DNA of 64,000 nucleotides, from assembly GCA_000004985.1 (NCBI GenBank), contig GG738879.1; one strand, given 5' to 3'. Each line of letters begins with the position of its first letter. The first letter of the stretch is position 1. A program made the translations under genes and the position numbers. The notes under the pieces were generated by a model. That model saw only the letters and a program-made list of their open reading frames with translations. It made no database searches and was not told where the DNA came from. The DNA is from Naegleria gruberi (Eukaryota). Of the stretch, positions 8,737 through 62,429 are shown one piece after another.

Positions 8737-8884
8737 TACGATTAATAGTTTAAATATTCTAAAATCTTTCATGATACATATTAAGGTATGGATTTAAAAT
8801 TTTAAATGCAGCATATAACTTCCATATTAGAGAACATCCTTAAATTACCCTTTATCTCTCCTTAATAAATGCCATTGCTTCCAT

Positions 8885-11800: not shown

Positions 11801-14116
11801 TGCATCTAAAACCAATGTTGAACGATTTAATGAAACTCAACCTGAAGAATTGGAAAGACCATCAAGTGCAAGAATGAAAAAGGATAACTCACAAACCACA
11901 AGACCAACAACGGCCTCACGTATTAACTTTAAAGAAAACAGATGCGATGTGGGGCCTTCTGACATGGAAATCTATGAATACGACCCAAATGACGGAGTAG
12001 ATAGACATTTGGAATTATTGAGAACAATTGAAGAACAAGAGAAAGAAGACAGATTCACTGAAGATTTTGAATGGACAAGACCAATCACTCCAAAGGTTGA
12101 GTACTATGATGACTATGATTTCATTTCAAGACCTGGAAGTGCCAGAACTATCTTCTCAGAACCACTTGAAAACGATGCAAATTCTGATACAAGTAGTTCT
12201 CACTCTTCTGAAAAAAATTCAATTCTGTTTGAAAAGTTACATACACTTTCTAGACCTTCCTCCTCTCCTTCTTTTAGAAAGCCAAGATCTGATTCATTAA
12301 CAAGCTCATCTCAATCACTATTAATTAGAAAGGCCTATCTTCCGTATCAACCAGAATCTCCTCACTCAGAAGAAGAGATTGAAGAAGTAGAGGAAGAAGA
12401 AATGGAAGTGGGAAATTTATCAAGACGTTCCTCAATATCGTCCACAATTCTTCTAGTCCACATACAGTTGTAAATTCACCAACAGGAACTTCACCAACAT
12501 TTATTTCTTTAATGAAGAAGAGAGCTGATTCTTCTACTTCATTTGGTCAGAACCCCTCATCTCCATCATCTAAAAACAGCTCTCGAAGAAATAGTAAGAT
12601 TAACCCTTTCATTGTAGAAACAGAATCAGATACCACAAGTGAAGCATCTAACCTTAATAATACTTCCTCAGCTGTTGATCTTCAAAATATCTCAACAAAA
12701 TTCATTGATTTGAATAATGGCGGTGGATCTCTAAACTCGAGAAGAAATTCTGAGAAGCTTGACTTCACGAGCACATCAAGTTCTCCTAGAAGATTGATAG
12801 ACACTCCAACTTATCCGGGTTATATTCCAAAATTCCTTCCTCGTCCATATTCTCTTCCTTTATTATCCAAAGTTAGACATGGTGTTGTCAGATTGAGTGT
12901 GTTTATGGAAATGCACTTGGCTAATGATTTCCAAGTTTTGAAGAAAAACTCAAGCGTAAATAATGTACCATACATGGAAGAAGGATTTGATAAGAATGAA
13001 TTGAATTCCATTATTAATGATGAAAATCCATACATGTTTATTAGAAGAACTAGGTTTAGTACTGGATTTTTGATTTGTCCACTTTCAACCAGACCAGGAA
13101 CTAAGAATTACTTGCTGACCTCAGCCAGAAATGTTCAATCTTATTTGACAACCAAAGTAGCTCCTGACAATACTTCTATTTATATTGAAAAGAAGGTTGT
13201 GAAGATTTCAGCCAACTTCCTTGATAATATCGAAGTTGGAGAAAAGGAACGACATCCAAATACTTTTGCTTCGGTTGCTGAGGTTGAATGTCAAATAGAA
13301 TATTGTGGATCGTTTTACAGTACGCTTAATGTCAACCAAGATTGGGCAATTCTTTCATTTACATTCAATGAAGATATCAAGTACATTGATAGGGAGAATT
13401 ATAAATTCTTAAAATCCGGAGTTATCACAATCCCTTCTCCATCTCAATTGTTCTTATTGGTAAAGCACTTGGTAACAAAGACAGCTGAAAATAAGAGAGC
13501 AAACTCTGATAATGTTGTTGGAGATTACATGATGTGTGTTAATGGATTGTATAGTGACAGAGAAGAATTATCCAATATTACTAAGGTAACCAATATTGAT
13601 GACTATTCTATCAAAATTGTAAGAGATTCGATGGATCCTATGGCTTGCTCATTGGCTTTCCTTGTTAAGGGTTCAAGCTTTTCTCGTTTCGAGTATGCCA
13701 ACTATTCAACTCCTTCATTTACTGGTGCTCCAATAACGGCTTGTGCCATTTCTATGGAGGGTTTGGAAGAAGTTCTCAAGGAATCTGATAGAAGGCATGG
13801 TAAGAAAAAAAATACCTTAAGAGGAAAGATTGAAAATCAAAATATTGCAAATTTTGCCAAGACCAACTCGTGTGTTTTTACAAGATACGTTATTGGTATT
13901 CACAGTACAGTTAGTGCAAATTCAAAATTCCATGGAGTTGGTTGTTCTGTCATGAACTGGTTTGAAACGTTCTTCAATTTAGTTTACAAACCTAACAGAA
14001 GAAGATTCTCACAAACTGAAAAGGAATTAATTGAGTTAGAATACGAGTCTTACATTTCTTTGAGCAATAGTAGAGTTCCAAATATTCCTGGGGCAGGATC
14101 TTGCAAAGTTATGTAA
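8885..14116 (+). CDS. One large low-complexity protein gene (S/P/T/E/Q-rich, about 1,700 aa) spanning track ORFs 8885..11035, 11160..12473 and 12512..14116. It is interrupted by two apparent frameshifts (overlap zones 11001..11035 and 12383..12473). The C-terminal roughly 500 aa form a structured domain of unknown type.
   Basis: The frame of the second ORF is open back to 11001 and the frame of the third back to 12383. Both overlap the end of the preceding ORF. The overlapping stretches read as continuous low-complexity protein (...QQVLP|QDAPESLAIEVAVENPPEL... and ...SRRSSISS|NSSSPHTVVNSPTGTSPTF...). No frame-compatible GT..AG intron exists at either junction. The ATG context at 8885 is poor, so the true start is uncertain. 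Confidence 0.45.
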
Positions 14117-41364: not shown

Positions 41365-43455
41365 ATGACTTTTTTATGGATAACCAATTTTCACAACAAA
41401 ATGACTAGACAACAAATGCTAAACTCGAGTAAGCTTTCAAAGCTTGCTATATTATTATATTTGATTGTGACTATTGTGTTTGCCAACCTTGTACACAGTG
41501 ATGATAAATCTGAATTGAACATGGCTTACACTGTAGATCAGACGAATTACATTCCAACCTCAGTCTCGTATTCTAATTCTGCTAATAACAATGGTGCTTT
41601 AACCAAATCAAGCACAACCACTTACTATTCCTCTTCAACGTCTGGCTATCCATATGGAGGCGGGGCAGTTCCTATTGGTGCAGCACCAGTTGCACAACCT
41701 ATTTTACAACCTCAACAAGTGATTGTTAATCCACAACCAATTCCACAACCTATTCCTCAAACATATGCTCAACCAATTCCTCAACCATACCCACAACCTA
41801 TTCCACAAGGTGTTCCTATAGCAGGAGGGGCAGTTCCACAACCAATTCCTCAACCTATTCCACAAGCTGCTCCGTATGCTCAACCTCTTATTACTCAACA
41901 ACCTATTCCTCAACCTCTTCCATATGCAGGAGGAGGTGTTCCAATTGCAACAGGAGCCCCATATGCTCAACCTCTTCCATATGCAGGAGGTGGTGGTGTA
42001 ATTTATGGAGGTGGAGGTGGTGTTGTAGGTGGAGGTGTTGTTGCTCAACCAATTCCACAACAAGCTCCAATTATTTACTCTGGAGGTTGTAGTGTTTATG
42101 GAGGTGTTGGATGTGGAGGTACTATTCCACAACCTATTCCACAAGCTGTCCCTATTGCTCAACCTTTACCCCAACCTGTTCCTCAACCAATCTTGCAACC
42201 TATTCCACAAACTTATGCCCAACCTATTCCACAACCTCTTCCATATGCAGGAGGAGGCATTGTTTATGGTGGAGGTGGCGTAGTTTACGGAGGTGGAGGT
42301 GGTGTCATTGCTCAACCAATTCCACAACCAGCTCCAATTATTTACTCTGGTGGCTGTGACGTTTATGGAGGCGTTGGATGTGGAGGTGGTGGTGTAGTTT
42401 ATGGAGGTGGAGGTGGCGTAATTTATGGAGGTGGAGGTGGAGGTGGTGTAATTTATGGAGGTGGAGCTGTACCTATTCAACCATTTACAGTTGACACTGT
42501 TGCACCTGTATCCTTAGTGACATATCCTCAAACAGTGGTAGTGAGTCCACCTGTAACAGCAACACCTTGTACCACTGGTAAATGCTCTTCTGTGGATACC
42601 TACGTACCTAATGTTATAGTCCCAGCTTCAGCAGGTGTAGCAACACCTTGTACCACTGGCAAATGTTCTTCTGTGGACACCTACGTACCTAATGTTATTG
42701 TCCCAGCTTCAGCAGGTGTAGTAAGCGTTCCCCTCAAGAGTAATAATGTTGTTGTTGGATCTGGATCTACAACTGCTTCTACTTGTTTATTGACAGTAAG
42801 AGGATTGACCACATTAGCTCTTAGCCCATCCTCATCCATCTGTTCTTCAGTTGTCAATTGTATAATTACTTACATTTCAGATTATGTGCAATATGCTATC
42901 AATGCCCTCAATTACGACAGTAGCACTTCTCTCACTGTGAACTCTCAAGATGAGAATGTAGATTTGTGGAAGGCTTTAGAGAATATTGCTGGAAGTATTA
43001 GCGAAGATGGATATGGACCTGCAACAACTACAGCTTCAGCAACATCAGCTGCTTGCACCAATGATTTGGCTCCTGTTTTTGCCAGAACCTCTAAAGGTGG
43101 AGCAGTATTTGTTAATTCATGCTGGGCAAGAATGGCAAAGGCCTATCCACCATTTGTTCCAGTTACACTCAAACCTGGTTCTGTTTCTAGTGGAGGTCAA
43201 TTTGATTGGCCAGATGATGTTCAAAATCCAAACTATGTTGTTGCCAATTACTATGTATTGAGCGCTTTCAGATTGACAAACTTTGCCTTGTACTACTTTA
43301 GACCTTGTATGAGTGCAAGCACTTACACTGTTCTCTCTAATGCCCTACAATCTTTGAACGACATTTCAGCCTTAATAACTGCTGGCAATGTTACAAGAGC
43401 AAACGCCTTATTGAGTGATTTACAAAAAAGTTTGAGCACATTATCTAGTGCATAA
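41365..43455 (+). CDS. Secreted or cell-surface repeat protein with a signal peptide, PIPQ/Pro-Gln modules, Gly-rich YGGGGGV modules, duplicated Cys-containing units and a Ser/Thr/Ala-rich C-terminal domain.
   Basis: The second Met (41401) starts a canonical signal peptide, MTRQQMLNSSKLSKLAILLYLIVTIVFANLVHS. Internal repeats at the DNA level: a PIPQ...YGGGG...CxVYGGVGCGG module duplicated (about 41700..42130 and 42180..42400), and a tandem duplication of about 75 nt (TPCTTGKCSSVDTYVPNVIVPASAGV, twice) at 42541..42720. Confidence 0.6.
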   Translation: MTFLWITNFHNKMTRQQMLNSSKLSKLAILLYLIVTIVFANLVHSDDKSELNMAYTVDQTNYIPTSVSYSNSANNNGALTKSSTTTYYSSSTSGYPYGGGAVPIGAAPVAQPILQPQQVIVNPQPIPQPIPQTYAQPIPQPYPQPIPQGVPIAGGAVPQPIPQPIPQAAPYAQPLITQQPIPQPLPYAGGGVPIATGAPYAQPLPYAGGGGVIYGGGGGVVGGGVVAQPIPQQAPIIYSGGCSVYGGVGCGGTIPQPIPQAVPIAQPLPQPVPQPILQPIPQTYAQPIPQPLPYAGGGIVYGGGGVVYGGGGGVIAQPIPQPAPIIYSGGCDVYGGVGCGGGGVVYGGGGGVIYGGGGGGGVIYGGGAVPIQPFTVDTVAPVSLVTYPQTVVVSPPVTATPCTTGKCSSVDTYVPNVIVPASAGVATPCTTGKCSSVDTYVPNVIVPASAGVVSVPLKSNNVVVGSGSTTASTCLLTVRGLTTLALSPSSSICSSVVNCIITYISDYVQYAINALNYDSSTSLTVNSQDENVDLWKALENIAGSISEDGYGPATTTASATSAACTNDLAPVFARTSKGGAVFVNSCWARMAKAYPPFVPVTLKPGSVSSGGQFDWPDDVQNPNYVVANYYVLSAFRLTNFALYYFRPCMSASTYTVLSNALQSLNDISALITAGNVTRANALLSDLQKSLSTLSSA
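42541..42720 (+). repeat. Near-perfect tandem duplication (2 x about 75 nt) inside the coding sequence of the secreted repeat protein.
   Basis: ..gcaacaccttgtaccactggtaaatgctcttctgtggatacctacgtacctaatgttatagtcccagcttcagcaggtgta.. is repeated immediately, with a few synonymous or near-synonymous changes. Confidence 0.8.
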
Positions 43456-49097: not shown

Positions 49098-49136
49098 TTG
49101 GAAAATAGAGTTGTGTGAAGGGAATGCACATCAATA

Positions 49137-49288
49137 AAGATCAACTTTCCAATTTTGATGATTAGTTATATTTGAAAAAACAATTAAGGACATGTAGAGC
49201 TAAGATTCTGCACCATCAAAAGAAAAGTCTCCCACAAGCATAAAGGAGAATAGTAGCCTTCAGGAATGTCGAAGTTGATTATTTTACC
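49137..49288 (+). repeat. Degenerate duplicate of the promoter and 5' end of the FHA gene (original at about 50182..50400).
   Basis: About 80% identity over about 150 nt, including the ATG region (acaattaaggacATGtag against acaattaaggacATGaag) and ..aaagaaaagtctcccacaa..cataa.ggag... The copy has an in-frame stop straight after the ATG and internal deletions. Confidence 0.6.
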
Positions 49289-50264
49289 TTTTTTTAATGC
49301 TTTTCTTGGTATATCAACTCAATGTCACAAAAGTCAGTACTCATCATCTTATGTCTTGGATTTGCAAATCCAATGAAAAATGCTTCTTTTTGAATCAGAA
49401 TCTTAGCTCTTCTTTGAAACCATACTTTCAACACTAAAAGCCATAGCTCCAGAACAATCGCATAAGGTCAATATAGTTTTCTCTACTTTTGATGGTCGTG
49501 GAATCACCAACAAGGAAGGGATTGCTGGAAGCTGATTACTATTGAAAAATAAATCAAACACGAAGTATCTGATTTGGTTAAAAGTAATCTAGAACATGAT
49601 GATGGAAAATATAGCCTTCTATTAACAGGATCGTTGCTAACTCCAATACGTGAAGGAAGCAATTCAAAGATAGCCCCACACAACAATCTGCAATTTAGAC
49701 ACTCTGTTGTTGGATTAGAGGTACATTTTTGTAAGCACTCTTCATTGCCCATTTGTATTTTAAATGGTAAAGTTGTTTGTCATGGAAAACCCTTATTTCC
49801 TCTGAAACTTTTTCCTAATGAAGATTGGGCAATAGTAGAACTCGATAAAACAAGTGGTGAATACATTTTCGAGAATTCTTTTGGAAGTTCAAACCATGGC
49901 AATAGTTTCGGTGTGATCTAAAAGGTGTTTTGGATTTTGATAAATCGGAGTGTTTATCTGTTAGTAAGACCTCATGCTGAGTAGATAGAGTCTCAAAAAT
50001 TACCGGCTCATCACTGAAAACATTTTTTTAAGGGTTGTTGTAATTTTAAACTCGAATTAAGTATGTTCAAGAGTTTAGACCCTTAAGGCATTGAGAGAAC
50101 AATAATTCAAAAATTGTTCTTCTTATTCAACACTCAGGTTCAAAAGATAATGTCGCAACCACAACCATTTGCTACAAATCAGTAAAGATCAACTTTCCCG
50201 CCAATTTTGATGATCAGCAAAAATTTGAAAATAATAAAATTAATTAAAAAAAACAATTAAGGAC

Positions 50265-51686
50265 ATGAAGAAGCTTTCTCAACAAGCCTCTGCATCATCA
50301 CAGAAAGAAAAGTCTCCCACAATCATAAGGGAGGACATTAGCCTAGCTACTAAAAGGAATGTTGAAGCTGATAATGAATTAGACTTTACCTCATCATCTT
50401 CAACTAGTAAGGGGGTTGTGTTTGCACTCTTGAAAGGAACAAAACGAACAATTGATATTAATCAATCTAAGGTTTTTATCGGAAGAGATCCTGTTACTTG
50501 TGAGGTGTGTTTGGCAAATTCACCAACAGTCTCAACAATGCATGCACAATTGGAATTTATTGATGATAATTCAAAAGAAAAGCCTAAAGTTGTTTGTGTC
50601 TTGAGAGATTTAAAATCAAAGAATGGAACACTAGTTAATAACGTTAAAGTGAGTCAAAATTTATCATCGATTATTAGGAATGGAGATTTGATTCAATTCG
50701 GACAAGATGAAGTATTTAGATTCGAGATTGGACCTTTTGTTTCAGAAGTTGTAAACAAAGCACCAATCATTGATGCAGATGAATTTACTTCAATAGACTC
50801 ACCTCTCTCATCAGATTTTGAAATTCAAGAGAAAGTGAAGGAAATAACATCTAAGGAAGAAAATGAAACAGATTTTATTGAAACAGAAGGAGATAAATTG
50901 GAAGACACATTCTTTGAAACAATGGAACCAACAAATAGACTCATTGATAGAGAGGTTTATAAGGATGAAAGTCTGAGAATGCACTTGTACGATGAAATTA
51001 ACGATCTAACCTCTGAACTCTCAACTAAATTAAACCTTCTCAATTCCGTCCTTAGTGAAGACACTCCTTACCATAGAAATCAAGTCCCTTTCGAGTTTTT
51101 AAAGTCCATGCACAACCTTTCTGAAAGTATTTCATTCCTCACCAGAGACACGATATTCGAAAGACAATCAGAAATCAAATTTAGAGAACTAGAACAGTAT
51201 GCAAACTCCTTAGAAAGAAAGCTCGTAAATTACAAAAAACTTGGGAAGGATTCTGAAGTTTCACTTGCTCAATGTAAAAAATTATACACCAAATCTAAGG
51301 ATGAAAGCAATAAGAAGATTCATGACCTTACCACCTCCTTACACGGAAGATTGGATGAAATACAACTTCTTAAAAAAGGACTTTCCAATGAAAAAGATAT
51401 AACCAATTCTTTAAAAACAGAAATTGATAGACTCAAATATAGACTATCAATTGAGGTTACACAAACAGAGAGTCTAAGAAAATCCAACGACATTCTCAGA
51501 CAGCAACTGCTCAAAACACAAGATTACTCCAACTTTTTACACAAGGAAATTTTGAAAATAGAGGACTTTCCACTGAATCTCAAAATTTCCAATCTAGTTT
51601 CTAATGAAACAAAACAATCACCAAACCTTAATCAAACGATCAATGCAACTTCAATAATTGAGCAATATAAAAACATGGATCTATAA
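50265..51686 (+). CDS. FHA-domain protein with a long C-terminal coiled coil.
   Basis: FHA signature ..VFIGRDPVTCEVCLANSPTVSTMHAQLEF...LRDLKSKNGTLVNNVKV...IIRNGDLIQFG. An acidic linker follows, then a heptad-rich C-terminal half. ATG context aggacATGaag. Confidence 0.7.
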   Translation: MKKLSQQASASSQKEKSPTIIREDISLATKRNVEADNELDFTSSSSTSKGVVFALLKGTKRTIDINQSKVFIGRDPVTCEVCLANSPTVSTMHAQLEFIDDNSKEKPKVVCVLRDLKSKNGTLVNNVKVSQNLSSIIRNGDLIQFGQDEVFRFEIGPFVSEVVNKAPIIDADEFTSIDSPLSSDFEIQEKVKEITSKEENETDFIETEGDKLEDTFFETMEPTNRLIDREVYKDESLRMHLYDEINDLTSELSTKLNLLNSVLSEDTPYHRNQVPFEFLKSMHNLSESISFLTRDTIFERQSEIKFRELEQYANSLERKLVNYKKLGKDSEVSLAQCKKLYTKSKDESNKKIHDLTTSLHGRLDEIQLLKKGLSNEKDITNSLKTEIDRLKYRLSIEVTQTESLRKSNDILRQQLLKTQDYSNFLHKEILKIEDFPLNLKISNLVSNETKQSPNLNQTINATSIIEQYKNMDL

Positions 51687-52066
51687 AATTAGCACTTTAA
51701 GAATTGTGTCACATCTATTTTCTATGTTAATATTGCGGAAGTGCTACTGAAGATGCACCATTTTCAAAGAAATTGGAAATTGGCTCTTTGGAGAATTCTA
51801 CTAATATGATGGCTTTATTACCTTCTTAATTTCCGAATCCTCAAGAATGGAATTCCTCATTGGATGATGTTGTTGAGAGGCAGTAAGGAGAGGAGAACTG
51901 GGTGATGATTTATTCCTTTATTATTATTAATCTTCTTCTTGTTTGCACAACATATCGAAATGATTGATCAGTTCTTTGTCAATATTCACACCATCCACTA
52001 AAAAAAGTTTGTCAGAAATGAATCGTGAGTATGTAGCGTTGACACAATATTGGTCTTTAACTTTCT

Positions 52067-52726
52067 CTAATAATTCAAAGCACTCATCTCATTATGGAGA
52101 AGTTTTTGCATTACAGGTGTGTTTGCATTATTCAGTAAAATAGAATCAGAGGGATTTAACTTTTCGAAAAGTTGACCAATTTCTTCTTTTGTTCCATCTA
52201 TTACCATTAATTTCCCAAATAAATAAAATTTGTGATGGCCTAGATTAAGATTACCAATATGAAGAGATATTTTGGGGTTTTGTTTATGTTGGAAGACTTG
52301 GCGTAAGATAATGGTTGTAGCAAAGTATTCTTGGTGTGTTGGTTTGGCTTGTTGATCGCAAACATTATTGAATATATGTTTGGTGAGTTCAAATAGTGAA
52401 TTTTTTGAAGCAATTTCGTAAGAGATGATACCATTATCCTGATGCTGTTTTGTTTTACCTTGGTATATGAATGAATTTTTTGTTTCCAAATTACTACCAT
52501 GAGCAGTAATAGTTTGTCTTGTTTTTGGCCAATCACCTTTTTCAATAGAGCATACATTAGGTTCTATTCGAAAGTAATTGTCCACTATTATTTCATTTCT
52601 AACGTGTTTAAAATCGTTTAACGGGGGCTCACTTTTATTGCAAACCAATTTAAAGTACTTTGCCACGACGGTGTGTTCTGCTGTTTTAATTTTTTCCACG
52701 TTATTTGCATCTAAGGGTGGAGTCAT
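52067..52726 (-). CDS. Hypothetical protein of 219 aa.
   Basis: Clean ORF with ATG context aataaaaaaATGact. No domain recognised. Confidence 0.4.
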   Translation of the reverse strand: MTPPLDANNVEKIKTAEHTVVAKYFKLVCNKSEPPLNDFKHVRNEIIVDNYFRIEPNVCSIEKGDWPKTRQTITAHGSNLETKNSFIYQGKTKQHQDNGIISYEIASKNSLFELTKHIFNNVCDQQAKPTHQEYFATTIILRQVFQHKQNPKISLHIGNLNLGHHKFYLFGKLMVIDGTKEEIGQLFEKLNPSDSILLNNANTPVMQKLLHNEMSALNY

Positions 52727-52870
52727 TTTTTTATTAAGGATTCATAGTTTGGAAAAAATGGAAGATCAATACATATTTCTCGTAAAAAATTCTTTAGTGA
52801 AATTTTTTTTCCTAACAACTACTTTATCAATTCAGGTGGCACACATTTAGCCAATTAATCCTGGTAAACA

Positions 52871-54727
52871 TTAGTAGAAAGCACTTTGAGGTCGTGGATT
52901 AGGAATAATTTCTTTTGATTCAAAATACGTAACCATTTGTTTGGGTATTTCAGCTAGCACTTCAGAAGCTAATTGTGTTAAATCAGAACATTCAGAAAAG
53001 CTCACAAATTGAACAATGTCTCTTGTCATTTTAGTTCCATTACTGTGAATGAGTGGTTCATCATCAGCATCGAATTTTCTACAACTTGGGAAACTTCTAC
53101 CACCAATACCAACAATTACAATTGAGATAGGTTTGTCATTGGCCTCTATAATTGAATCGATTGTGCCTTGCATGTCAAATGCATCCCCATCAATAATTAA
53201 CAATAGAATATTGTAGAATTGTTGTTGTTGAGTAACAGGAGGAGTTCTCTCAACGACATGTTCAATAACTCTATAAAAGTCATCTCCTCGATAAGGCTTT
53301 CCAGTTTTTGGATTAGTGGCACTTCCCATATCTCCAAATGATAGTCTTGGAACTGCCTTCTCATATGCTTCAAGTATTTCTCCTACACAAAGTTCCTCCT
53401 TATCTGAGAGTGACAGATTAAACATTGGATTCATTTTTAATTCCTTATCTATCCTTGCACCATATCCATATGCTTTCGAATAATTAGTGAAAGTGTTAAA
53501 AGTCAAATACTTACCACCATATATCTTGTCAGAATCATAAGGTTCCAAAATTTGCAAAACTTGTGCAAGGGCTTGTTGATAGTGATTCTTCTTGGAACTT
53601 AAATAATGGAGGGAGCTACTACTGGTGAAACCACCGTTTGATGCAGTAAAATCAATGCCAACTGATACTGAAATGTTACATCCTCCCATAATGTGGTCTA
53701 AAAATTGATCTTGGCGGTTTTCCTTCCTGGCAACAAAGGATTGGTAGATTTGATATTCTGGATTTGGTACTGGAACATGTTCTATCTGAATAGTACATAT
53801 TTCAAACTCAAACACTCCAGAGTTTTTGTAATTCTTCTTTTTTTTTTGAAGGGATGGCTCAATTAAATGGAATTGTTTTACATTATTATTCAGAACTTGG
53901 TCCAAATTATATTTAAATTCTCCAATTAAATCATCCTTCGAGTACTTGTCCTTGTCATAGCATGTCACAAATATATCCTTGTTGTAATCATTGTTGAATT
54001 CATCTAAATTGAGTTTAAAGGATGTCCAAGAAGGGTTCAGATTCTTATAGATAACTTCACTTGTGTAGAGTTTGACTCTTCTTCCAGCAACTTCCTTTTC
54101 AAAGAAAAAGTAACAATCTGACTTTCCAAAGAAATCCTTCTTATCTAATCCAATACCTTTACATTTGAATAGAACTACTTTCATATCTGAATTAACAGTA
54201 GTTGGTATCTCAGAACGTAGAGCATTCAATTCAGCCGAGCTCATACCAGAAAATTTCAAAGTGGCATTCCTTTCAGAATCAGCATTATTAGTGTTATTCG
54301 AATCCGATTGCCTAACAACCTTCTCAACATGAACAAAGACCTCACCTTGTACTTTCCCACTCTTCAAAACAAGATCTAACTTTAATTTACCATCCCTCGA
54401 GCAAACAGCTTGTGATAATGAAAACTCTCTAGTTTTGCCAATAAGCTCACTCTTATTTCCACCATCGTCATCATAGATTTCAATATAAAATTTCTGTACG
54501 CACTCAAAATAATAATGAACACTAAACTTGGTCTTGAACACTGGATTATGATTATTCTGAATTGTTTCGGTATTGCCCAGAAACGTGAATTTATCAACAC
54601 CACCCGATGATGAACTTGTGTTACTTTCGTACAGTTTAGCAAACGGATCAGACTTGGACATCAAGTCCATTCTAGCCAAATTGCAACATGATAAATAAAT
54701 ATCAACAGATTCTCTGGCGGAATTCAT
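52871..54727 (-). CDS. Copine: two N-terminal C2 domains plus a C-terminal vWA (copine A) domain. Intronless.
   Basis: C2A begins VDIYLSCCNLARMDLMSKSDPFAKLY. C2B has ..VLFKCKGIGLDKKDFFGKSDCYFFF... The vWA region carries the copine-specific VGIDFTASNG motif and ..PTNFE.. surrounding sequence. Confidence 0.85.
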   Translation of the reverse strand: MNSARESVDIYLSCCNLARMDLMSKSDPFAKLYESNTSSSSGGVDKFTFLGNTETIQNNHNPVFKTKFSVHYYFECVQKFYIEIYDDDGGNKSELIGKTREFSLSQAVCSRDGKLKLDLVLKSGKVQGEVFVHVEKVVRQSDSNNTNNADSERNATLKFSGMSSAELNALRSEIPTTVNSDMKVVLFKCKGIGLDKKDFFGKSDCYFFFEKEVAGRRVKLYTSEVIYKNLNPSWTSFKLNLDEFNNDYNKDIFVTCYDKDKYSKDDLIGEFKYNLDQVLNNNVKQFHLIEPSLQKKKKNYKNSGVFEFEICTIQIEHVPVPNPEYQIYQSFVARKENRQDQFLDHIMGGCNISVSVGIDFTASNGGFTSSSSLHYLSSKKNHYQQALAQVLQILEPYDSDKIYGGKYLTFNTFTNYSKAYGYGARIDKELKMNPMFNLSLSDKEELCVGEILEAYEKAVPRLSFGDMGSATNPKTGKPYRGDDFYRVIEHVVERTPPVTQQQQFYNILLLIIDGDAFDMQGTIDSIIEANDKPISIVIVGIGGRSFPSCRKFDADDEPLIHSNGTKMTRDIVQFVSFSECSDLTQLASEVLAEIPKQMVTYFESKEIIPNPRPQSAFY

Positions 54728-54809
54728 CTTTGAGCGGTGGTATTTACCACTATTCGAAACTATTTTTTTGTTGAATTTGAAATTAAAAAATCTAACAAAA
54801 TACTATTTT

Positions 54810-54920
54810 CACACTATTTGAATCAATGCCACTTCAATATTTGAGAAATCTAAAAACACAGATCTATAAAATTAGCACTTCAATAATTGTCACACATCTC
54901 TTTTCTATTTTAGCATTGTA
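54810..54920 (+). repeat. Degenerate duplicate of the last coding codons and 3' UTR of the FHA gene (original at about 51627..51745).
   Basis: ..gaatcaatgccacttcaatatttgagaaatctaaaaacacagatctataaaattagcacttcaataattgtcacacatct.. against ..cgatcaatgcaacttcaataattgagcaatataaaaacatggatctataaaattagcactttaagaattgtgtcacatct... About 80% identity. It lies in the spacer shared by the copine and alpha-tubulin genes. Confidence 0.6.
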
Positions 54921-54945
54921 GTGGGAGTTTACAGCAGTTCGTTGT

Positions 54946-54974
54946 ATTTTTCCCTCCAAAATTTTCCCTCCAAA
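54946..54974 (+). promoter_or_regulatory. Direct tandem repeat TTTTCCCTCCAAAA (x2) about 150 bp upstream of the alpha-tubulin ATG. Candidate promoter element.
   Basis: tttttccctccaaaattttccctccaaaactt lies in the 396-bp spacer between the divergently transcribed copine and alpha-tubulin genes. A function is inferred only from position and repetition. Confidence 0.3.
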
Positions 54975-55117
54975 ACTTTACAATTTGTTGTACGGTTGAA
55001 GATATCGCTACCCTTTAAATACAATTCACTTCTTCCCTAACCAAATTTTTCAACAAAAAAAAAATCGCTCGTCCTCCATTATAGAGAAACTTGCAAAACG
55101 CTCGTAAATAATAATAA

Positions 55118-56485
<1,368 letters not shown>

Positions 56486-56631
56486 ATTAATTACTCCATT
56501 GAGACTTTTTCAAAAAATTAAGACGTATTCTGTTTAAATCATTTTAGATTCTTTCTGTCACGAATAAGCCAACCTGGTTAAATTAAAAAAAATATTGAGC
56601 TTATCTAATATTATTGAGATGGAAATAAAAT

Positions 56632-57252
56632 TTATAGCTCGAATAAAGATTGCCATAATGATTTTGGTTGTGTCTTGTAAATCTCATTAGATTGTTTCTT
56701 CCTTTTTCGAGATTCTTCTTGTGATTGAGATGAAAATTTAGAATTTGTTTGGGTATGAGATAAACTAATCATTGGGGTATTATCATTCCACTTGGAGTTG
56801 ACAATTTCAAATTTTCTCTTTTGATTTCGTTTATCTAAAAGTGTTGATCCTGGAAATACACTAGATGAAATTCCCTCCGATACAGTGAGAGCAGCAACTT
56901 GTGGAGGTACATCATGTATTGCTTTTCTCTGTATTGGTTTATCTTTTTTTACATTAAAATTTGTATCGGCCCATTCCAAACCTCCACCACTTCTCTCTAT
57001 ACTTGAAGCCACTGATGTTGTTGGGCTTGAAGCCAATATAATTTCTTGTTCCTCATCCTCATCATCATTTAAATAATTATTTACAGGTCGTTCCAAAAAC
57101 ATGAAGGATTTACTCTTTGTGAGTACACCTTTACGATCCGAATTGGCTGTTTTACTTCTTTTTACATTTTGGTTTTGTTTTTTGACTTGTCCAATACTTG
57201 GTGGTTCACTGTAGCGAGAAACACCACATAACGTAGAGTAGAGATTAGGCAT
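56632..57252 (-). CDS. Hypothetical basic/acidic protein of 206 aa.
   Basis: ORF with ATG context caaaaaaaATGcct. Charged, S/T-rich, no recognisable domain. Confidence 0.4.
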   Translation of the reverse strand: MPNLYSTLCGVSRYSEPPSIGQVKKQNQNVKRSKTANSDRKGVLTKSKSFMFLERPVNNYLNDDEDEEQEIILASSPTTSVASSIERSGGGLEWADTNFNVKKDKPIQRKAIHDVPPQVAALTVSEGISSSVFPGSTLLDKRNQKRKFEIVNSKWNDNTPMISLSHTQTNSKFSSQSQEESRKRKKQSNEIYKTQPKSLWQSLFEL

Positions 57253-57573
57253 TTTTTTTGATAATTATTTGAAATTCAAAATTATTAATTATTTCTTCCA
57301 ATTTAAACAATCAGTAAGCAAATATCGTCCTCTGTAATTGGTCTCCAACCATGTTCAATGAGATTAAAACTGACTGAGAAATTAATTGAAAATACTTGAG
57401 GGAAATAAAAGTTGTATTGCCAACTAACTGATTTGTTGTCAGTGTGTTTGCCAATCAATCATGAAAACTTTCTTGAATTCCATTTTGTGATATTTTATTA
57501 CAATATATAGCTTACAAATACGATAAACAGATTGGAATTATTGCTAAATTGCAATTAAATGTTTCTGAAATAT

Positions 57574-59386
57574 TTACAATTCCCAATCATCATCACTTTC
57601 CTCATCTTCACTGGAATATTCAATATTACCACGACGAAGTTCCATAATACCTGCAATCTTGGCTGCCAAATTGTTTTGATCACTTTCAGCCATATTCTTG
57701 AATTCTGGTAAATCTTCTTGCTTTACATTTCTCAATTTCTTATTTTTAATTTCAGAAAGCATGTCAACACCACCTGAGGCACCACTATCAGAATCAGTTG
57801 TTGGACTTGCAACAGATACTCTAGGCTTAACAGAGTGATCGACAACTGGTGGAGGAGGAACATTGGTTGGTGGAGGAGGTACAAAACCACCAACTCCAAT
57901 GGCACTTGAGCCAGAAGGAGCATTTGAGCTAGCTCCCTTGAAAGGAGGTGGTGGAGGGGTTGATCTAGTTCCTGGGGTTGGTGGAGGTTGTGGTCTTCCA
58001 CTTGGAACATCCAAAGAAGGAGGTGGGGGAGCATCTGATGTGACAGTGACAAGTGTCTTCATTAAAAATTTGGCAGTTTTCTTATCTTTCAATTCAGCTT
58101 CTGAAATGCCTGCCTTCTCAAATATGGTTTTTAGCTCTTGGGGTATTTCTGTAAATCCACTTTTTGGATCAAAACCAATGTGTGAAACGTGTTTAAACTT
58201 GTCAACCTTTGGTCCAGAAATTTTGATTTGTGACCGGTCAGGAATTTGGTCCTTATTCTTTGTTCCGAAAATCTTGGAGAATAAACCACCTCCACTACTG
58301 CTACTACCTCCACTACTGCTATTGCTAGGAGTGTGTTTCTTTTCAGGTTCCTTATGGGAAGAAGTAGTATGTACAGAGCTACTGGCAGCAATTGAAGTAT
58401 TGACAGCTGTTGGCTTGTTAGCAACTGGTGGAGGAGTGGATGGAGGAGGATTAGTCTTCTTCACTGGAGTAGGTGGGGCAGTACTGGAACCAGTACCAGT
58501 TGGTGAAGAAGAAGAAGAATCAGAACTGTCACTTCTCATATTAACAGAAGGTTTAGTTGAAGGCAAACTTGGAGTTGAACCACCATTGATAGAACCAGTT
58601 GCTTTCAAACGAATGAGTTGACAAACTTGCTTGGCAAATTGATCAGCATCAAATCTTTCAGCAAATAACAATCCAACAAAACCTTCATCAGATTCGAATG
58701 CATGAAAATTGGAAGAAAGTGTTTGATAGTCGAAACCTTCATAACATTCTTGTTCCATAGTAACTGATTTACTCTTCAAATCTACCAACCGAATCATTAC
58801 TACTGATTGCTTTTCAACCAATGTAACTGTCAAAATTCCATAAGAATTGGCATATGACCATTGATTACCATTGTTGGCTTTGTAGAGACGAACTGGTGCA
58901 GAATACTTGATTTCGAAAATGTTTGGTAAAGACAAGACACCTGCAGCGAGTTGTACAGCACGTTTACTTCAAGTTTGACAAGATTTGGGGAAATTAAAAT
59001 TGTTTTTTTTAAAATTTAAAGTATTTCATCTTTCAATTTTGATTTGGCAAGTAAACTCAACTCCATTTGAAAAGAATCTGTAACGATAATATTTTATTCA
59101 ACAAAATGCTAATTTCTCGATGGAATTAAGGTAGTTTTGAAATCTGACTTCAAATTATGAATCCTCGCATTGACATACCCCTTGGGGTGGCAGCATTCTC
59201 AAAAATATGTAGAAATGAGTAAGAACGAGTTGTTAGGTGTTGTTCTATTGAAATGCTTATTTTGGATTTGACAGCAGAAGAACAACAAAATTTTTTCTAA
59301 ATAATTTATTTTCTTTCAAAAAACGCGTCAAATTTGAAGTAAACGTGCTGTAATTCGTCAGGGAGAATGTTGATTCTTGTTGTCAT
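57574..59386 (-). CDS. WASP-family actin nucleation-promoting factor with WH1/EVH1, CRIB, poly-Pro, WH2 and acidic-Trp modules. The N-terminal coding region is interrupted by a TA-flanked inverted-repeat element. Restored CDS = join(59386..59351, 58953..57574), 471 aa.
   Basis: WH1: ..IKYSAPVRLYKANNGNQWSY...VVMIRLVDLK... CRIB: ISGPKVDKFKHVSHIGFD. Pro-rich region with many PPPP runs. WH2-like GGVDMLSEIKNKKLRNVK. Acidic C-terminus DEESDDDWEL. Upstream of the element an ATG (aaaaaaaaATGaca, 59386) encodes MTTRINILPDEL. That matches the region preceding WH1 in N-WASP (LLTPQEN) and is in frame only if 58954..59350 is removed. Confidence 0.7.
58954..59352. mobile_element. MITE-like non-autonomous DNA element, 395 bp plus flanking TA/TA. 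26-bp terminal inverted repeats (TACAGCACGTTTACTTCAAGTTTGAC, one mismatch). AT-rich non-coding interior. Possibly a Tc1/mariner-type insertion in the WASP coding region.
   Basis: Plus-strand 58954..58979 is the reverse complement of 59327..59352 (25 of 26 positions). Both ends are bounded by TA. The interior has no ORF. Precise removal of the element plus one TA restores the WASP reading frame. Confidence 0.6.
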
Positions 59387-59585
59387 TTTTTTTTAACTTT
59401 ATTATATTTTTATTGATGAGTGACGTTTGTTGTTCCTTTGCTATTGTAACCTTTTTGTATCAATCTTTTCAATTTTTATCTTAGAAAAGTAATATTATTC
59501 TTGTTGTCATTTGTTTATTGGGTACGCAACGTTCCTAATTTGCGTTTTTGCGACGAGCTACGTATTTTTAAGGAACAAACAACGA

Positions 59586-59657
59586 TCCCGTGTGGTCCAA
59601 TGGCTAAGATACCTGGCTCTCACCCAGGAGATCCGGGTTCAATTCCCGGCACGGGAG
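59586..59657 (+). tRNA. tRNA-Glu, anticodon CUC.
   Basis: TCCCGTG-TG-GTCC-AATGGCTA-AGAT-A-CCTGG-CTCTCAC-CCAGG-AGAT-CCGGG-TTCAATT-CCCGG-CACGGGA-G. The loop has U33, CUC, A37. The T arm is CCGGG/CCCGG. A T5 terminator follows directly. The D stem has 3 bp plus one mismatch. Confidence 0.8.
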
Positions 59658-59701
59658 GATTCAATTTTTAGGCAAGATAATGAATAATTTTTTTTAGTTT
59701 A

Positions 59702-61022
59702 TTAGATTTCAGTTCTTGTCTTATTAACACTACTCTCCTCACTTGAACTAAATTCTGTCATTTCAATCATTGAAACACTAATGCTAATCTCACACACATC
59801 ATTTGCTTGATGAAGCACCTCTCCAATGGTTGATGATTTTTGTGAAATTTCACTTCCACTTGCGCTGTCAGGTTGTTGAACAGTTTCTGATTTTGCAATT
59901 TCTTCTTTCGAATTCTCCTTATGAAGCAAGTATTTGAGGAGAAGTCTATTTCTCAAAGAAGACACCAAACTTGCACACATGAAACTCAAACCAAGAACTA
60001 AATAAATACCAAAGAGTACCAAAATTACTGCAAACCAAGGTTTCACATAAAAATTGAGAACTGTATAAGGAAATTCGGAAACTAGACGATTTCTCATACA
60101 TGTGAGCATCCATACAAAGTAAGCACTTGGGAAACACATGATTGTGAACACGTGCCACTTTCTATATTGAAAATTAGACAATAAAAAGTCAATCAAGCTC
60201 AATATTCCAGTCACTCCATGATAAGCCACAGAACTATCACAAATTCATTAACATTTTTCAATGATCATCAAGAAACAACTTACATGTAATCTACTCCATC
60301 TTCCTCCTCTCCCAACCTTGCAAACCAGTAACCAATCGAAACAACCAAAGAAGCCACCAAATTCAACTCTCCAACAATCCATATAATACCAGAGAGTGCT
60401 CTCAATACAATCACCAACCATTTGTTTCTTCTCTTCAACACACTAATAGATTCTGAAGTGAAATTCACAGAGAAATCCCTAAACACAATCAAGTAAAACA
60501 TTCCAAACACGGTTTGAGAGCTGAAATATGTTGTAAATACCATTACCATATGATGGGTAAAATAAGTTGAGGATTTGAGAAGTACATTGTCCGTCTCATA
60601 CTTTCTCATGAACGGATACGAAATGATTGTTCCAATAATCCAACAACAGACTGTAAATCTGAAAATGTACAGAGCAATTGTGATGTACTTGTTGTAGCCA
60701 AATGATTCAAAGACGAATTGTGAAGAGTTTCTCAAGCTGTGTGAATGTTGTGTGTTAAATATTTTAAAATTCAATTCTAATCAACTTACCCATCAAGAAG
60801 TAAATCTTGCTTTCTGATTTCATTAGAGTTAGTGGATTGGTTGTCTGGTTCCTTCTGATCACGGTTCTTTCTCCTAGTGTAAAAGAAACCTTTCACTAGA
60901 AAGAAACCCACCGAAACCATAAAGATGAAAGCAAATGTCATACTGCTCTGTACTAAGAGTAGAGAACTAATTAAATTAGCACCTCTTGTTTCAGAAGATG
61001 AAGGAATTTTATAAGGGTCCAT
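59702..61022 (-). CDS. Multi-pass membrane protein (about 405 aa, at least 7 helices). Three exons: join(61022..60790, 60736..60284, 60233..59702); introns of 53 nt (60737..60789) and 50 nt (60234..60283).
   Basis: Three consecutive track ORFs (60786..61022, 60280..60774, 59702..60229) are linked by two GTAAGT introns, both phase 2, with CACAG and GATAG acceptors. The spliced frame is continuous (...DLLLDG-LRNSSQF... and ...GVDY-I-SVAYHGVTG...). ATG at 61022. Confidence 0.6.
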
Positions 61023-61669
61023 TATAGAATTGTTTGAATTGTTGTTTTGTTTTTTATGAAATTATCAATTCTTTGGTGTAAACTGTTGGGTTTTATACGA
61101 AACCCAACAACATGTGTTTGTCCATTAGATTCCACAGAAAAAGCAAGGTTTCTGTTCGTACCTGTTTAAAACCATTCAAAAGGAAACCGAATTTGTGTGA
61201 ATTTTGTAAAGTGACTGGTAGTTTTGTTAACAAAACATTACAAAACAGTTCGGTTTCCATAAATAGGTTCATTCTATATTCGCACTGAACCTTTGTTTGC
61301 ATAATCTTCGTAAGTACTTATTCTGTAAATAGCTAGCGAACATTCTGGAATCACTTATTTTGTAAAAAAATTCATTTCAAGGGCGGCAATTTACAAAAAT
61401 CCCTTTCGGCTGTTTAGTCTACCAATTACAGAACTTTCTCTATTAAAAATTATTTATTTCATTGTTATGGTAAGCAGAGCTCAATCACTTGAATATTTTC
61501 GACACATTGTGCATGTGACACTTCATGACGTTTCTATTCGAAAAACGTCCAACTTGCAAACTTACTCAAACAAGCAGCAAGAAAATATTCGTGCCGAAAC
61601 TGAGATTAGGAAACAAAAGAATTGCATATTTTGACTTTACTCAATTGGATGAGTAAGAATTAAGAAACA

Positions 61670-61951
61670 TTATCGTTCCTTCTTTCTAGGAGTTGGTGGA
61701 GTTACCACAATTGGACACGTGCTTATTGAAGTTGCTGTCTCACTATCATCATCATCATCTTCATTACAATTTGGATTTGTCTTCTTGGGTGGCTTTACAA
61801 CATGCATATCTTCAGTTCTCACCATTAGAAATCCATCTTCATCCTCTGGAGTGGAAGCCAATGAATTTGTCTCTTCATTGATTGAATATCTCGAATAGGC
61901 CATAATTGTGTTTGCTTTCTTTTCTGTTAGGAATTGAGAACCCATCATCAT
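61670..61951 (-). CDS. Small acidic hypothetical protein of 93 aa. Possibly an exon of a larger gene.
   Basis: Begins ATGATGATG (MMMGSQF...). Acidic and Pro-rich. No support beyond ORF length. Confidence 0.3.
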   Translation of the reverse strand: MMMGSQFLTEKKANTIMAYSRYSINEETNSLASTPEDEDGFLMVRTEDMHVVKPPKKTNPNCNEDDDDDSETATSISTCPIVVTPPTPRKKER

Positions 61952-62429
61952 GATGAATCATTTAAGTGGTTGGAGAGAGAAGTACCTGGTGAGAATCAGA
62001 GTCAGCAGATGTTGATGCTTGTATTATTCTGTGCTTTTTTATAAGTGATAGATGTTGATGTTACAAGTATGTGGGAGGCCTTTGCATTGTTGGCGTTTTC
62101 TACTTGTAGCATATTCATATAAAAATGTGTGTTCTGTATTTGGAGAGAGACATCTACTCAGAATCTCAATACAGTTTCTATCGCTTCTATTTAGTGAGGA
62201 GTCAGTATCTCTCTAAAATTCTCGCTTCATGCAATCATGCATGTCTCTAAGGTTTGGCAAGAATGCTTTTATTTACAAGTGTATTGTACCACTAAGGTAG
62301 TCCATTGCATTTATTTCTTAACAAATCAAGCATCCAGAAGAAGATCCCTCAGAAATGTCCTTTAATGTTTGGTCACTAGAATGGAATGTATTCAGTCAAT
62401 ATATATATGTGTGTTACTACTTTAAAAAC

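What the first reader, a model, noticed from the sequence alone, without database searches (positions are those of the whole stretch)
54810..54920. Degenerate copy of the FHA-gene 3' end (last codons plus 3' UTR) inside the copine/alpha-tubulin divergent promoter
54810..54920 matches 51627..51745 at about 80% identity. That is the final roughly 20 codons of the FHA gene, the stop (atggatctaTAA against acagatctaTAA) and about 60 nt of 3' UTR. It lies 3.1 kb downstream of the real 3' end, inside the 396-bp spacer that must hold the promoters of copine and alpha-tubulin. Either a gene-fragment remnant has been co-opted into a promoter region, or the shared sequence is itself a regulatory or terminator module.
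Basis: seen in the sequence. Interest (0 to 1): 0.5.

Follow-up and report, generated by a model that had tools for sequence, protein, structure and literature searches.

The report
Leftover duplicate marking a gene-block insertion
The 97-base copy of the FHA gene's tail in front of alpha-tubulin is a scar left when a 3.1-kb block carrying two genes (copine and a small unknown gene) was inserted between two genes that are still direct neighbours in other Naegleria species; it is a tidy piece of genome history, not a new kind of element.

Summary
The repeat is real. Window 51639-51735 (R: last 15 FHA codons, stop, 49 nt of 3' flank) matches 54822-54918 (R') at 86% over 97 nt without gaps. The ends are sharp and there are only two copies in 64 kb.

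The window is Naegleria gruberi. In N. lovaniensis and N. fowleri the FHA gene is followed directly by this alpha-tubulin gene, with no copine between them. R' lies where the FHA stop sits in N. lovaniensis relative to two conserved tubulin upstream boxes: relic stop to first box is 83 nt against 87 nt, and stop to ATG is 254 nt against 286 nt.

R keeps the C-terminal motif shared by the orthologues. R' has lost it (I>F, Q>K).

So the 3,086 nt between the repeats (51736-54821: a 219-aa gene plus copine) is an N. gruberi-lineage insertion flanked by a 97-nt duplication of its target, and R' is the decaying downstream copy. A second strain shares both junctions.

The insert has no terminal repeats, transposase or poly(A) tail, so the mechanism is inferred: fill-in of a staggered break, or replication template switching.

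The FHA 5' end has a similar degenerate copy about 1 kb upstream.

There is no good evidence that R' regulates anything. Interest is low to moderate.

The parts
51639..51735 (+). R: functional copy. Last 15 codons of the FHA gene (INATSIIEQYKNMDL), TAA stop at 51684-51686, and 49 nt of 3' flank. Left-hand member of the 97-nt direct duplication.
   Evidence: The C-terminal motif is conserved in the N. lovaniensis and N. fowleri orthologues. Identical in a second strain, L017.
51736..54821 (-). Inserted block, 3,086 nt, carrying two co-oriented minus-strand genes. Absent from the FHA-tubulin junction of N. lovaniensis and N. fowleri.
   Evidence: synteny; no terminal inverted or direct repeats, no poly(A/T), no microhomology; host-like composition.
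52067..52726 (-). 219-aa ORF inside the insert. It belongs to a small family of uncharacterised proteins of about 250-260 aa; every named member is from Naegleria or Willaertia. An in-frame stop truncates it, and it carries a 250-nt deletion in a second strain.
52871..54727 (-). Copine gene (two C2 domains plus a copine domain), 618 aa, inside the insert. Only 94 nt of its own upstream sequence came with the insert.
54822..54918 (+). R': relic copy of the FHA 3' end (INATSIFEKSKNTDL, relic TAA at 54867-54869, 49 nt of relic 3' flank). Right-hand member of the duplication, at the ancestral position relative to alpha-tubulin.
   Evidence: Identical in a second strain, L004.
54952..54974 (+). Two tandem CCCTCCAAA boxes. 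They correspond to the CCCGCCAAA box found upstream of alpha-tubulin in the paralogue L001, N. lovaniensis and N. fowleri. The first box starts 83 nt after the relic stop (87 nt in N. lovaniensis).
55077..55088 (+). CATTATAGAGAA box, invariant upstream of alpha-tubulin in all five Naegleria sequences compared. Unique in the window.
55124..56485 (+). Flagellar-type alpha-tubulin gene, intronless, ending in Q. It is the ancestral downstream neighbour of FHA.
   Evidence: Abstract of PMC2115128.
50265..51686 (+). FHA-domain gene, 473 aa. Its two ends are each duplicated nearby.
49133..49289 (+). F5': degenerate direct copy of the FHA 5' end (about 85 nt upstream plus about 42 codons; ATG followed directly by TAG; about 10 indels). 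It pairs with 50178-50391 and is separated from it by an 888-nt segment with no coherent ORF.
   Evidence: (family D7).

Best explanation
R and R' are the two copies of a 97-nt stretch of target sequence, the FHA 3' end. The stretch was duplicated when a 3,086-nt block (a 219-aa family gene plus copine, both on the minus strand) was inserted into the FHA/alpha-tubulin junction in the Naegleria gruberi lineage.

The copy attached to the FHA body (R) still supplies the gene's conserved C-terminus, its stop and its 3' flank. The copy left beside the tubulin upstream region (R') is a relic that drifts freely.

Shown:
- the repeat and its sharp ends;
- FHA-tubulin adjacency in two other species;
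- R' at the ancestral stop position relative to conserved tubulin upstream boxes;
- loss of conserved residues in R';
- both junctions present in a second strain.

Inferred:
- The duplication arose in the same event as the insertion. The likely routes are fill-in of a staggered double-strand break, or a replication template switch that re-entered 97 nt behind its point of departure.
- The duplication is what let FHA survive an insertion 15 codons before its stop.
For: 1. The repeat is 97 nt, 85.6% identical, ungapped, E 2e-27, with only two copies and unrelated flanks.

2. The window is N. gruberi. The copine model P0003 is identical apart from spliced-out pieces.

3. In N. lovaniensis (L003) FHA 10001-11467 is followed by alpha-tubulin 11754-13115. 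In N. fowleri (L006) FHA 8001-9491 is followed by alpha-tubulin 11219-12580. Neither has a copine or a 219-aa homologue there. Downstream synteny (the 206/234-aa gene and the zf-AN1 gene) shows it is the same locus.

4. Layout in the window: relic stop 54869, +83 nt to CCCTCCAAA, then CATTATAGAGAA at 55077, then ATG at 55124, a 254-nt spacer. Layout in N. lovaniensis: stop 11467, +87 nt to CCCGCCAAA, then CATTATAGAGAA at 11697, then ATG at 11754, a 286-nt spacer.

5. The FHA C-terminus L-N-Q-T-I-N-A-T-S-I-I-E-Q aligns with LSETINGTGIVEQ and LNQTINGTGIVEQ in the orthologues. R' has I>F and Q>K there, and 5 of the 6 coding differences change the amino acid.

6. R and R' differ by 14%, while FHA nucleotide sequence is barely alignable between species (one 69-nt hit; the proteins are 38-40% identical). 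The duplication is therefore younger than the species split, which makes insertion in N. gruberi more likely than loss elsewhere.

7. A second strain (ENA sample ERZ929261, contigs L004 and L017) has both junctions and the same 14 R/R' differences.

8. No other FHA remnant lies in the insert, which argues against a decayed whole-gene duplicate.
Against: - No 'empty site' was seen in a close relative of N. gruberi, and no donor locus was found. The single-event link between insertion and duplication, and its mechanism, are therefore inferred.
- 97 nt is far longer than the target duplications made by known transposases.
- R' shows no difference between the two strains, while the other 212 nt of the spacer carry 11 differences. 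Post hoc p is about 0.02-0.04, which leaves room for some constraint on R'.
- The rest of the N. gruberi genome could not be searched for further copies.
Confidence: 0.8

Rival explanations
1. R' has the same origin but is not inert. It keeps or has gained a cis-regulatory role, either as a distal element of the differentiation-specific alpha-tubulin promoter that always overlapped the FHA 3' end, or as part of the promoter or 5' UTR of the newly arrived copine gene, which brought only 94 nt of its own upstream sequence.
For: R' is identical in two strains, while the rest of the 309-nt compared spacer has 11 substitutions or indels. R' lies 95-191 nt upstream of the copine ATG and 206-302 nt upstream of the tubulin ATG. 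In the ancestral layout the FHA 3' end lies within about 290 nt of the tubulin ATG.
Against: - The between-strain contrast is post hoc and weak (p about 0.02-0.04). It is about 0.1 against the substitution rate of the other non-coding flank.
- The tubulin paralogue L001 is 98.6% identical in the gene but shares only 66 nt upstream and has no R'.
- The boxes conserved across three species all lie downstream of R'.
- Nothing resembling R' was seen in the N. lovaniensis upstream region where it was aligned or in the N. fowleri spacer.
- The copine homologue in a related organism (L005) has another called ORF starting 152 nt upstream, so copine promoters there can be short.
Confidence: 0.15
2. R' (and F5') are what remains of additional whole FHA gene copies made by tandem duplication. 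The bodies of those copies were later deleted or overwritten by unrelated DNA.
For: Both ends of FHA have degenerate direct copies nearby, at overlapping divergence: 9.6% (95% CI 5-15%) and 14.4% (CI 8-23%).
Against: - It needs at least two duplications, two large deletions and two insertions.
- Homology stops abruptly at both ends of R' and of F5'.
- No other FHA-derived sequence was found anywhere in the window by blastn or tblastx.
- R' sits at exactly the ancestral distance from the tubulin boxes, as expected if it never moved.
Confidence: 0.08
3. The 97-nt sequence is a dispersed repeat (MITE, SINE or solo LTR) or a shared terminator module that happens to lie at both places.
For: None positive. 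The full genome could not be searched.
Against: - The first half of R is coding sequence that is orthologous, in frame, to the conserved C-terminus of FHA in two other species.
- There are only two copies in 64 kb and none in the roughly 62 kb of other Naegleria loci fetched.
- The seven metagenome hits to the shared 20-mer are chance matches of 20-34 nt in unrelated contigs.
- Viral contigs gave no hit.
- There is no significant secondary structure (z -1.4, -0.2 and -1.6) and no Rfam family.
Confidence: 0.03

Closest known systems
Target-site duplications flanking transposable-element insertions
   Same: Direct repeats of host target sequence immediately flank inserted DNA. The repeat belongs to the target (here the FHA 3' end), not to the insert.
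   Different: Transposase or integrase duplications are short and of fixed length, about 2-20 bp (own knowledge). Here the repeat is 97 nt. The insert has no terminal inverted or direct repeats, no poly(A), no transposase or reverse transcriptase, and consists of two ordinary cellular genes.
Breakpoint duplications under the staggered-break model of chromosomal rearrangement (described for Drosophila inversions, Ranz et al. 2007; recalled from memory, not read here)
   Same: Duplications of tens to hundreds of bases at rearrangement junctions, often containing gene fragments. They leave one intact gene and one decaying fragment.
   Different: In inversions the duplicates are inverted and flank the inverted segment. 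Here they are direct and flank an insertion. The mechanism was not tested.
Templated insertions by replication template switching (FoSTeS/MMBIR; recalled from memory)
   Same: A foreign segment is copied in and the fork re-enters behind its departure point, which duplicates the sequence in between. Two such switches in one event would explain copies at both FHA ends.
   Different: The diagnostic microhomology at donor/acceptor joins cannot be checked because the donor locus is unknown. No microhomology is visible between the junction flanks.
Gene relics and pseudogene fragments in intergenic DNA
   Same: A short, frame-preserving but mutated piece of a neighbouring gene lying in a spacer, with relaxed constraint.
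   Different: Most relics are what remains of a full duplicate. This one was probably never more than 97 nt.

Membership tests
Transposon target-site duplication | Direct repeat of target sequence abutting both ends of the insert | tested here: met
   R ends at 51735 and R' starts at 54822. The flanks are unrelated.
Transposon target-site duplication | Short duplication of family-specific length (about 2-20 bp) | tested here: not met
   The duplication is 97 nt.
Transposon target-site duplication | Insert has element termini (TIR or LTR) and/or encodes a transposase, integrase or RT, or ends in poly(A) | tested here: not met
   The end-to-end alignments score no better than shuffles (p 0.48 and 0.59) and there are no A/T tails. 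The ORFs are copine and a family whose named members are all Naegleria or Willaertia, with no Pfam domain.
Dispersed repeat (MITE, SINE or solo LTR) | Many copies next to unrelated genes | tested here: inconclusive
   There are two copies in the window, none in the other Naegleria loci, and only chance 20-mers in metagenomes.
Dispersed repeat (MITE, SINE or solo LTR) | Sequence is foreign to the genes it lies beside | tested here: not met
   The coding half of R is orthologous to the conserved FHA C-terminus in N. lovaniensis and N. fowleri.
Remnant of a whole-gene (tandem) duplicate | Further decayed homology to the parent gene beyond the fragment | tested here: not met
   blastn (word size 7) and tblastx of the whole FHA gene against the window find only the two end fragments. 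The boundaries are sharp.
Shared cis-regulatory or terminator module | Present at paralogous or orthologous promoters, or at other 3' ends | tested here: not met
   It is absent upstream of the tubulin paralogue L001. Nothing like it was seen upstream of N. lovaniensis tubulin or in the N. fowleri FHA-tubulin spacer.
Shared cis-regulatory or terminator module | Sequence constraint or structure beyond neutral expectation | tested here: inconclusive
   There are 0 of 97 differences between two strains against 11 events in the 212 nt of flanking spacer (post hoc p about 0.02-0.04). The folding z-scores are not significant.
Insertion-junction (breakpoint) duplication | Uninterrupted ancestral adjacency of the two flanking genes in related genomes | tested here: met
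   FHA is followed directly by alpha-tubulin in N. lovaniensis (286 nt apart) and N. fowleri (1,727 nt apart).
Insertion-junction (breakpoint) duplication | The distal copy lies at the ancestral position relative to the downstream gene | tested here: met
   Stop to box is 83 nt against 87 nt, and stop to ATG is 254 nt against 286 nt.
Insertion-junction (breakpoint) duplication | An empty site in a close relative, and an identifiable donor locus | not testable with these tools
   Exact-protein look-ups for N. gruberi models failed. The metagenome scan for FHA relatives found none.

The most novel reading that the evidence does not exclude
The FHA gene is bracketed by decayed direct copies of both its own ends, 157/214 nt at the 5' end and 97 nt at the 3' end, of statistically indistinguishable age. 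Each pair flanks foreign DNA (888 nt and 3,086 nt). This could be the footprint of one complex replication template-switching event. It could instead reflect a Naegleria-typical way of inserting DNA that makes 100-200-nt target duplications and so spares the interrupted gene. As a by-product it created a new head-to-head copine/flagellar alpha-tubulin pair, in which copine, with only 94 nt of its own upstream DNA, may now depend on R' and the tubulin upstream region.
Probability: 0.3. Interest if true: 0.45.

Novelty: new member of a known kind. Interest (0 to 1): 0.3.

Why it matters
- It gives a base-pair-resolved example of how gene order changes in a heterolobosean genome. A two-gene block was dropped into the last 15 codons of a gene, and the gene was rescued by a 97-nt duplication.
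- It turns R' into a landmark. Everything the flagellar alpha-tubulin gene inherited as upstream sequence lies in the 254 nt downstream of the relic stop.
- That interval holds two boxes conserved across three Naegleria species, CCC(G/T)CCAAA and CATTATAGAGAA. They are concrete candidates for the cis-elements of flagellar-gene induction. A 2025 review says the transcription factors that regulate cilia genes in Naegleria have still to be found (PMC12183034).
- As an element in its own right, R' is ordinary.

Tried and rejected
- **Exact-protein look-ups.** The FHA protein, the 219-aa ORF and the N. gruberi models P0003 and P0005 returned nothing. The rest of the N. gruberi assembly, including a possible haplotig, could not be read.
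- **Metagenome scan for FHA relatives.** The three-species alignment matched 373 pattern hits, none confirmed.
- **20-mer scans.** The shared 20-mer gave 7 chance hits of 20-34 nt in JGI metagenome contigs of 33-46% GC and none in viral contigs.
- **Viral origin of the insert.** No relative of the 219-aa ORF was found in viral contigs, and the insert's composition matches its surroundings.
- **RNA element.** No relevant Rfam match; the only hit is a sub-threshold Listeria sRNA model at 56930. Folding z-scores of R, R' and the reverse of R' are -1.4, -0.2 and -1.6.
- **Mobile-element termini.** The insert ends show no TIR, LTR, poly(A) or microhomology.
- **Extending the repeat.** The flanks are not significantly similar.
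- **The copine homologue L005 (77% nt).** Its 345-nt upstream region shows no similarity to the window spacer and does not reach far enough to show whether tubulin is next door. Inconclusive.
- **The 888-nt segment at the FHA 5' end.** There is no coherent ORF and no Pfam hit, so its nature is unresolved.
- **The 103-nt inverted repeat at 7.1/8.7 kb.** I looked at it as a possible third junction duplication. It is simply two tRNA-Arg genes.
- **Other junction repeats.** I searched for them around the other lineage-specific stretch, 56.4-63 kb. None was found.
- **Published alpha-tubulin transcript start.** I looked in the 1988 alpha-tubulin paper, but only the abstract is held.

Full report
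**Observation**

Window 51639-51735 (called R here) and 54822-54918 (R') align over 97 nt without a gap. They share 83 identical positions (85.6%), with blastn E about 2e-27 inside the window.

The 60 nt on either side are no more alike than shuffled sequence (p = 0.13 and 0.79), so the repeat has sharp ends. The 20-mer shared by both copies occurs exactly twice in the 64 kb even when three mismatches are allowed, against 0.03 expected.

R consists of:
- the last 15 codons of a 473-aa FHA-domain gene (50265-51686, plus strand; Pfam FHA, E 1.4e-14);
- its TAA stop;
- 49 nt of 3' flank.

R' lies in the 396-nt spacer (54728-55123) between a minus-strand copine gene (52871-54727) and a plus-strand alpha-tubulin gene (55124-56485).

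**Organism**

The copine's best database hit, P0003 ('predicted protein [Naegleria gruberi]'), is identical to the window ORF apart from pieces the gene model spliced out. The window is therefore N. gruberi, either the reference strain or something nearly identical to it.

The alpha-tubulin is intronless and ends in glutamine. That matches the flagellar alpha-tubulin family described by Lai et al. 1988 (abstract of PMC2115128).

**Comparative evidence**

The FHA protein has orthologues in N. lovaniensis (P0001, 38% identity) and N. fowleri (P0122).

| Species (locus) | FHA gene | Alpha-tubulin gene | Spacer |
|---|---|---|---|
| N. lovaniensis (L003) | 10001-11467 | 11754-13115, same strand | 286 nt |
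| N. fowleri (L006) | 8001-9491 | 11219-12580, same strand | 1,727 nt |

- Neither spacer holds a copine or a relative of the window's 219-aa ORF.
- Genes further downstream match between the window and L003: the 206/234-aa minus-strand gene and the zf-AN1 gene. This shows it is the same locus and not a tubulin paralogue.
- FHA next to alpha-tubulin is therefore the arrangement in two other Naegleria species. The 3,086 nt between R and R' (51736-54821) is extra sequence in N. gruberi.

**Position of R'**

Aligning the tubulin upstream regions of five sequences shows two conserved boxes: CCC(G/T)CCAAA and an invariant CATTATAGAGAA. The five sequences are the window, a 93%-identical metagenome contig (L002), a paralogous N. 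gruberi-like locus (L001), N. lovaniensis and N. fowleri.

| Feature | Window | N. lovaniensis |
|---|---|---|
| Stop (relic stop in the window) | 54867-54869 | ends at 11467 |
| First CCC(G/T)CCAAA box | 54952 (+83 nt) | 11554 (+87 nt) |
| CATTATAGAGAA | 55077 | 11697 |
| Tubulin ATG | 55124 | 11754 |

R' sits exactly where the FHA stop would be if the insert were removed.

**Which copy is the working one**

The FHA C-terminus ...LNQTINATSIIEQ... aligns with LSETINGTGIVEQ in N. lovaniensis and LNQTINGTGIVEQ in N. fowleri. R keeps this motif.

R' reads INATSIFEKSKNTDL*, with I>F and Q>K at conserved positions. Five of the six differences in the coding part change the amino acid. The 3' flank part differs at 8 of 49 positions. 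R is under selection as part of FHA, and R' is drifting.

**Polarity and age**

One could argue instead that the copine block is ancestral and was lost in the other species by recombination between R and R'. That would require the repeat to predate the species split.

R and R' differ by only 14%. Between species, FHA DNA is almost unalignable (a single 69-nt blastn hit at 75%) and the proteins are 38-40% identical. The duplication is much younger than the split, so insertion in the N. gruberi lineage is the economical reading.

The insertion is not private to one isolate. Contigs L004 and L017 come from ENA metagenome sample ERZ929261 and are 98-99% identical to the window. They carry the right and left junctions respectively, with the same 14 differences between R and R'.

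**What was inserted**

Two co-oriented genes were inserted.

- **Copine.** It has two C2 domains and a copine domain. Apart from N. gruberi-like sequences, its nearest listed relatives are at 30-35% identity.
- **The 219-aa ORF.** It belongs to a small family found by an exhaustive HMMER search. The members are two N. gruberi paralogues, a Willaertia magna protein and two metagenome sequences, so every named member is heterolobosean.
  - In the window an in-frame stop cuts it short, and family-like sequence continues after the stop.
  - In the second strain it carries a 250-nt deletion and diverges faster than its surroundings (93% against 99%). It may be decaying.
  - The W. magna homologue is not next to a copine.

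The insert has no terminal inverted or direct repeats, no A/T tail and no junction microhomology. Its composition is host-like and it has no relatives in viral contigs.

Nothing identifies it as a mobile element. The way it was inserted is inferred, not shown. Two routes would both give an insert flanked by a long direct duplication of the target: fill-in of a break with staggered ends about 97 nt apart, or a replication template switch that re-entered 97 nt behind its departure point. Both are concepts recalled from the literature, not tested here.

**A second, similar scar**

The FHA 5' end (about 50178-50391: roughly 85 nt of upstream sequence and 42 codons) has a degenerate direct copy at about 49133-49289. 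That copy is 90% identical over 156 aligned columns but has about ten indels, and its ATG is followed directly by TAG.

An 888-nt segment with no coherent ORF and no Pfam match lies between the two copies. The gene that lies upstream of FHA in N. lovaniensis and N. fowleri is absent from the window, so synteny also breaks at this end.

The divergence of this pair overlaps that of R/R': 9.6% (95% CI 5-15%) against 14.4% (CI 8-23%). No other FHA-derived sequence exists in the window.

These are either two events of the same kind or one complex event. A history of whole-gene tandem duplicates is less economical.

**Is R' functional?**

Evidence against:
- The tubulin paralogue L001 is 98.6% identical through the gene but shares only 66 nt of upstream sequence and lacks R'.
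- All boxes conserved across species lie downstream of R'.
- There is no significant RNA structure and no Rfam family.
- A plus-strand terminator at that place would have no obvious transcript to terminate (inference).

Evidence for:
- R' is identical in the two strains, while the other 212 nt of the compared spacer carry 11 substitutions or indels.
- The chance of that is about 0.02-0.04, computed after the fact. It is about 0.1 if the substitution rate of the other non-coding flank is used.

I treat this as a hint, not a finding. Copine brought only 94 nt of its own upstream sequence, so some dependence on R' or on the tubulin upstream region cannot be excluded.

**Comparison with known kinds**

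The feature works like a target-site duplication but fails that family's defining features of short fixed length and element termini. It is closest to the breakpoint duplications seen at rearrangement junctions and to 'gene relics'. It is a new instance of a known kind of genomic scar.

**Verdict**

- 'Regulatory module' and 'dispersed repeat' are not supported.
- Confidence in the insertion-scar explanation is 0.8.
- Interest is 0.3. The main side value is the delimitation of the ancestral flagellar alpha-tubulin upstream region and its conserved boxes.

Noticed in passing
window 49133-49289 vs 50178-50391: The FHA 5' end (about 85 nt upstream plus about 42 codons) has a degenerate direct copy about 1.05 kb upstream. 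It is 90% identical in aligned columns, has about 10 indels, and its ATG is followed directly by TAG. The 888 nt between the copies (49290-50177) has no coherent ORF. FHA is therefore bracketed by relics of both its ends.
   Followed up: partly
window 54952-54974 and 55077-55088; L001 2501 and 2623; L002 4, 17 and 142; L003 11554 and 11697; L006 10979, 11073 and 11155: Two boxes are conserved upstream of flagellar-type alpha-tubulin in N. gruberi (two loci), a related strain, N. lovaniensis and N. fowleri: CCC(G/T)CCAAA and an invariant CATTATAGAGAA about 45-65 nt before the ATG. From memory, the first box resembles an E2F-type site (TTTCCCGCCAAA); this was not tested. A CCCGCCAA also lies 68 nt upstream of the FHA ATG (50197) and is destroyed in the relic copy. 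They are candidate cis-elements for differentiation-specific induction.
   Followed up: partly
window 51992-52726 (minus strand); L017: The 219-aa ORF belongs to a small family of uncharacterised proteins of about 250-260 aa, whose named members are from Naegleria and Willaertia. In the window an in-frame stop removes about 25 residues of a tail that is still recognisable. In a 99%-similar strain the gene has 6-, 18- and 250-nt deletions and is 93% identical. It looks like a gene in decay.
   Followed up: partly
protein P0005 (N. gruberi, 11,476-nt scaffold), relative to window 53660-58935: A database gene model fuses the WH1/PBD N-terminus of the window's WASP-like gene (57574-58935, with a few residue differences) to the C-terminal copine domain. 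In the window these are 4.3 kb apart, with alpha-tubulin between them. This could be an allelic structural variant, a mis-assembly or a gene-model artefact. The scaffold could not be fetched.
   Followed up: no
L006 9492-11218 vs L003 11468-11753: The FHA-tubulin spacer is 1,727 nt in N. fowleri but 286 nt in N. lovaniensis. The extra DNA has no detectable coding homology and no flanking repeat. The same junction seems to have taken up DNA independently in another lineage.
   Followed up: partly
window 56486-62427 vs L003 13116-15940: Downstream synteny is also remodelled. A GST gene lies between tubulin and the 234-aa gene in N. lovaniensis and just after tubulin in N. fowleri, and it is missing from the window. 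The window has a WASP-like gene, a tRNA-Glu and other sequence between the 206-aa gene and the zf-AN1 gene. No junction repeats were found there.
   Followed up: partly
window 55123-56493 vs L003 11753-13123: The alpha-tubulin coding DNA is 92% identical without gaps between N. gruberi and N. lovaniensis, while the adjacent FHA proteins are only 38% identical. The paralogue L001 is 98.6% identical at the DNA level. This points to very strong constraint on tubulin, including synonymous sites, and/or gene conversion among tubulin copies.
   Followed up: no
window 7126-7197 (+) and 8665-8736 (-); 59586-59657 (+): Two tRNA-Arg(TCG) genes in inverted orientation flank a 257-aa gene; this is the 103-nt inverted repeat reported by the repeat finder. 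A tRNA-Glu(CTC) lies at 59.6 kb.
   Followed up: yes
window 41725-42720: Dense in-frame tandem repeats lie here: 12-nt units giving P/Q-rich repeats, G-rich YGGGG-like repeats, and an 81-nt unit repeated at 95% identity. They probably lie within one repetitive, low-complexity gene.
   Followed up: no
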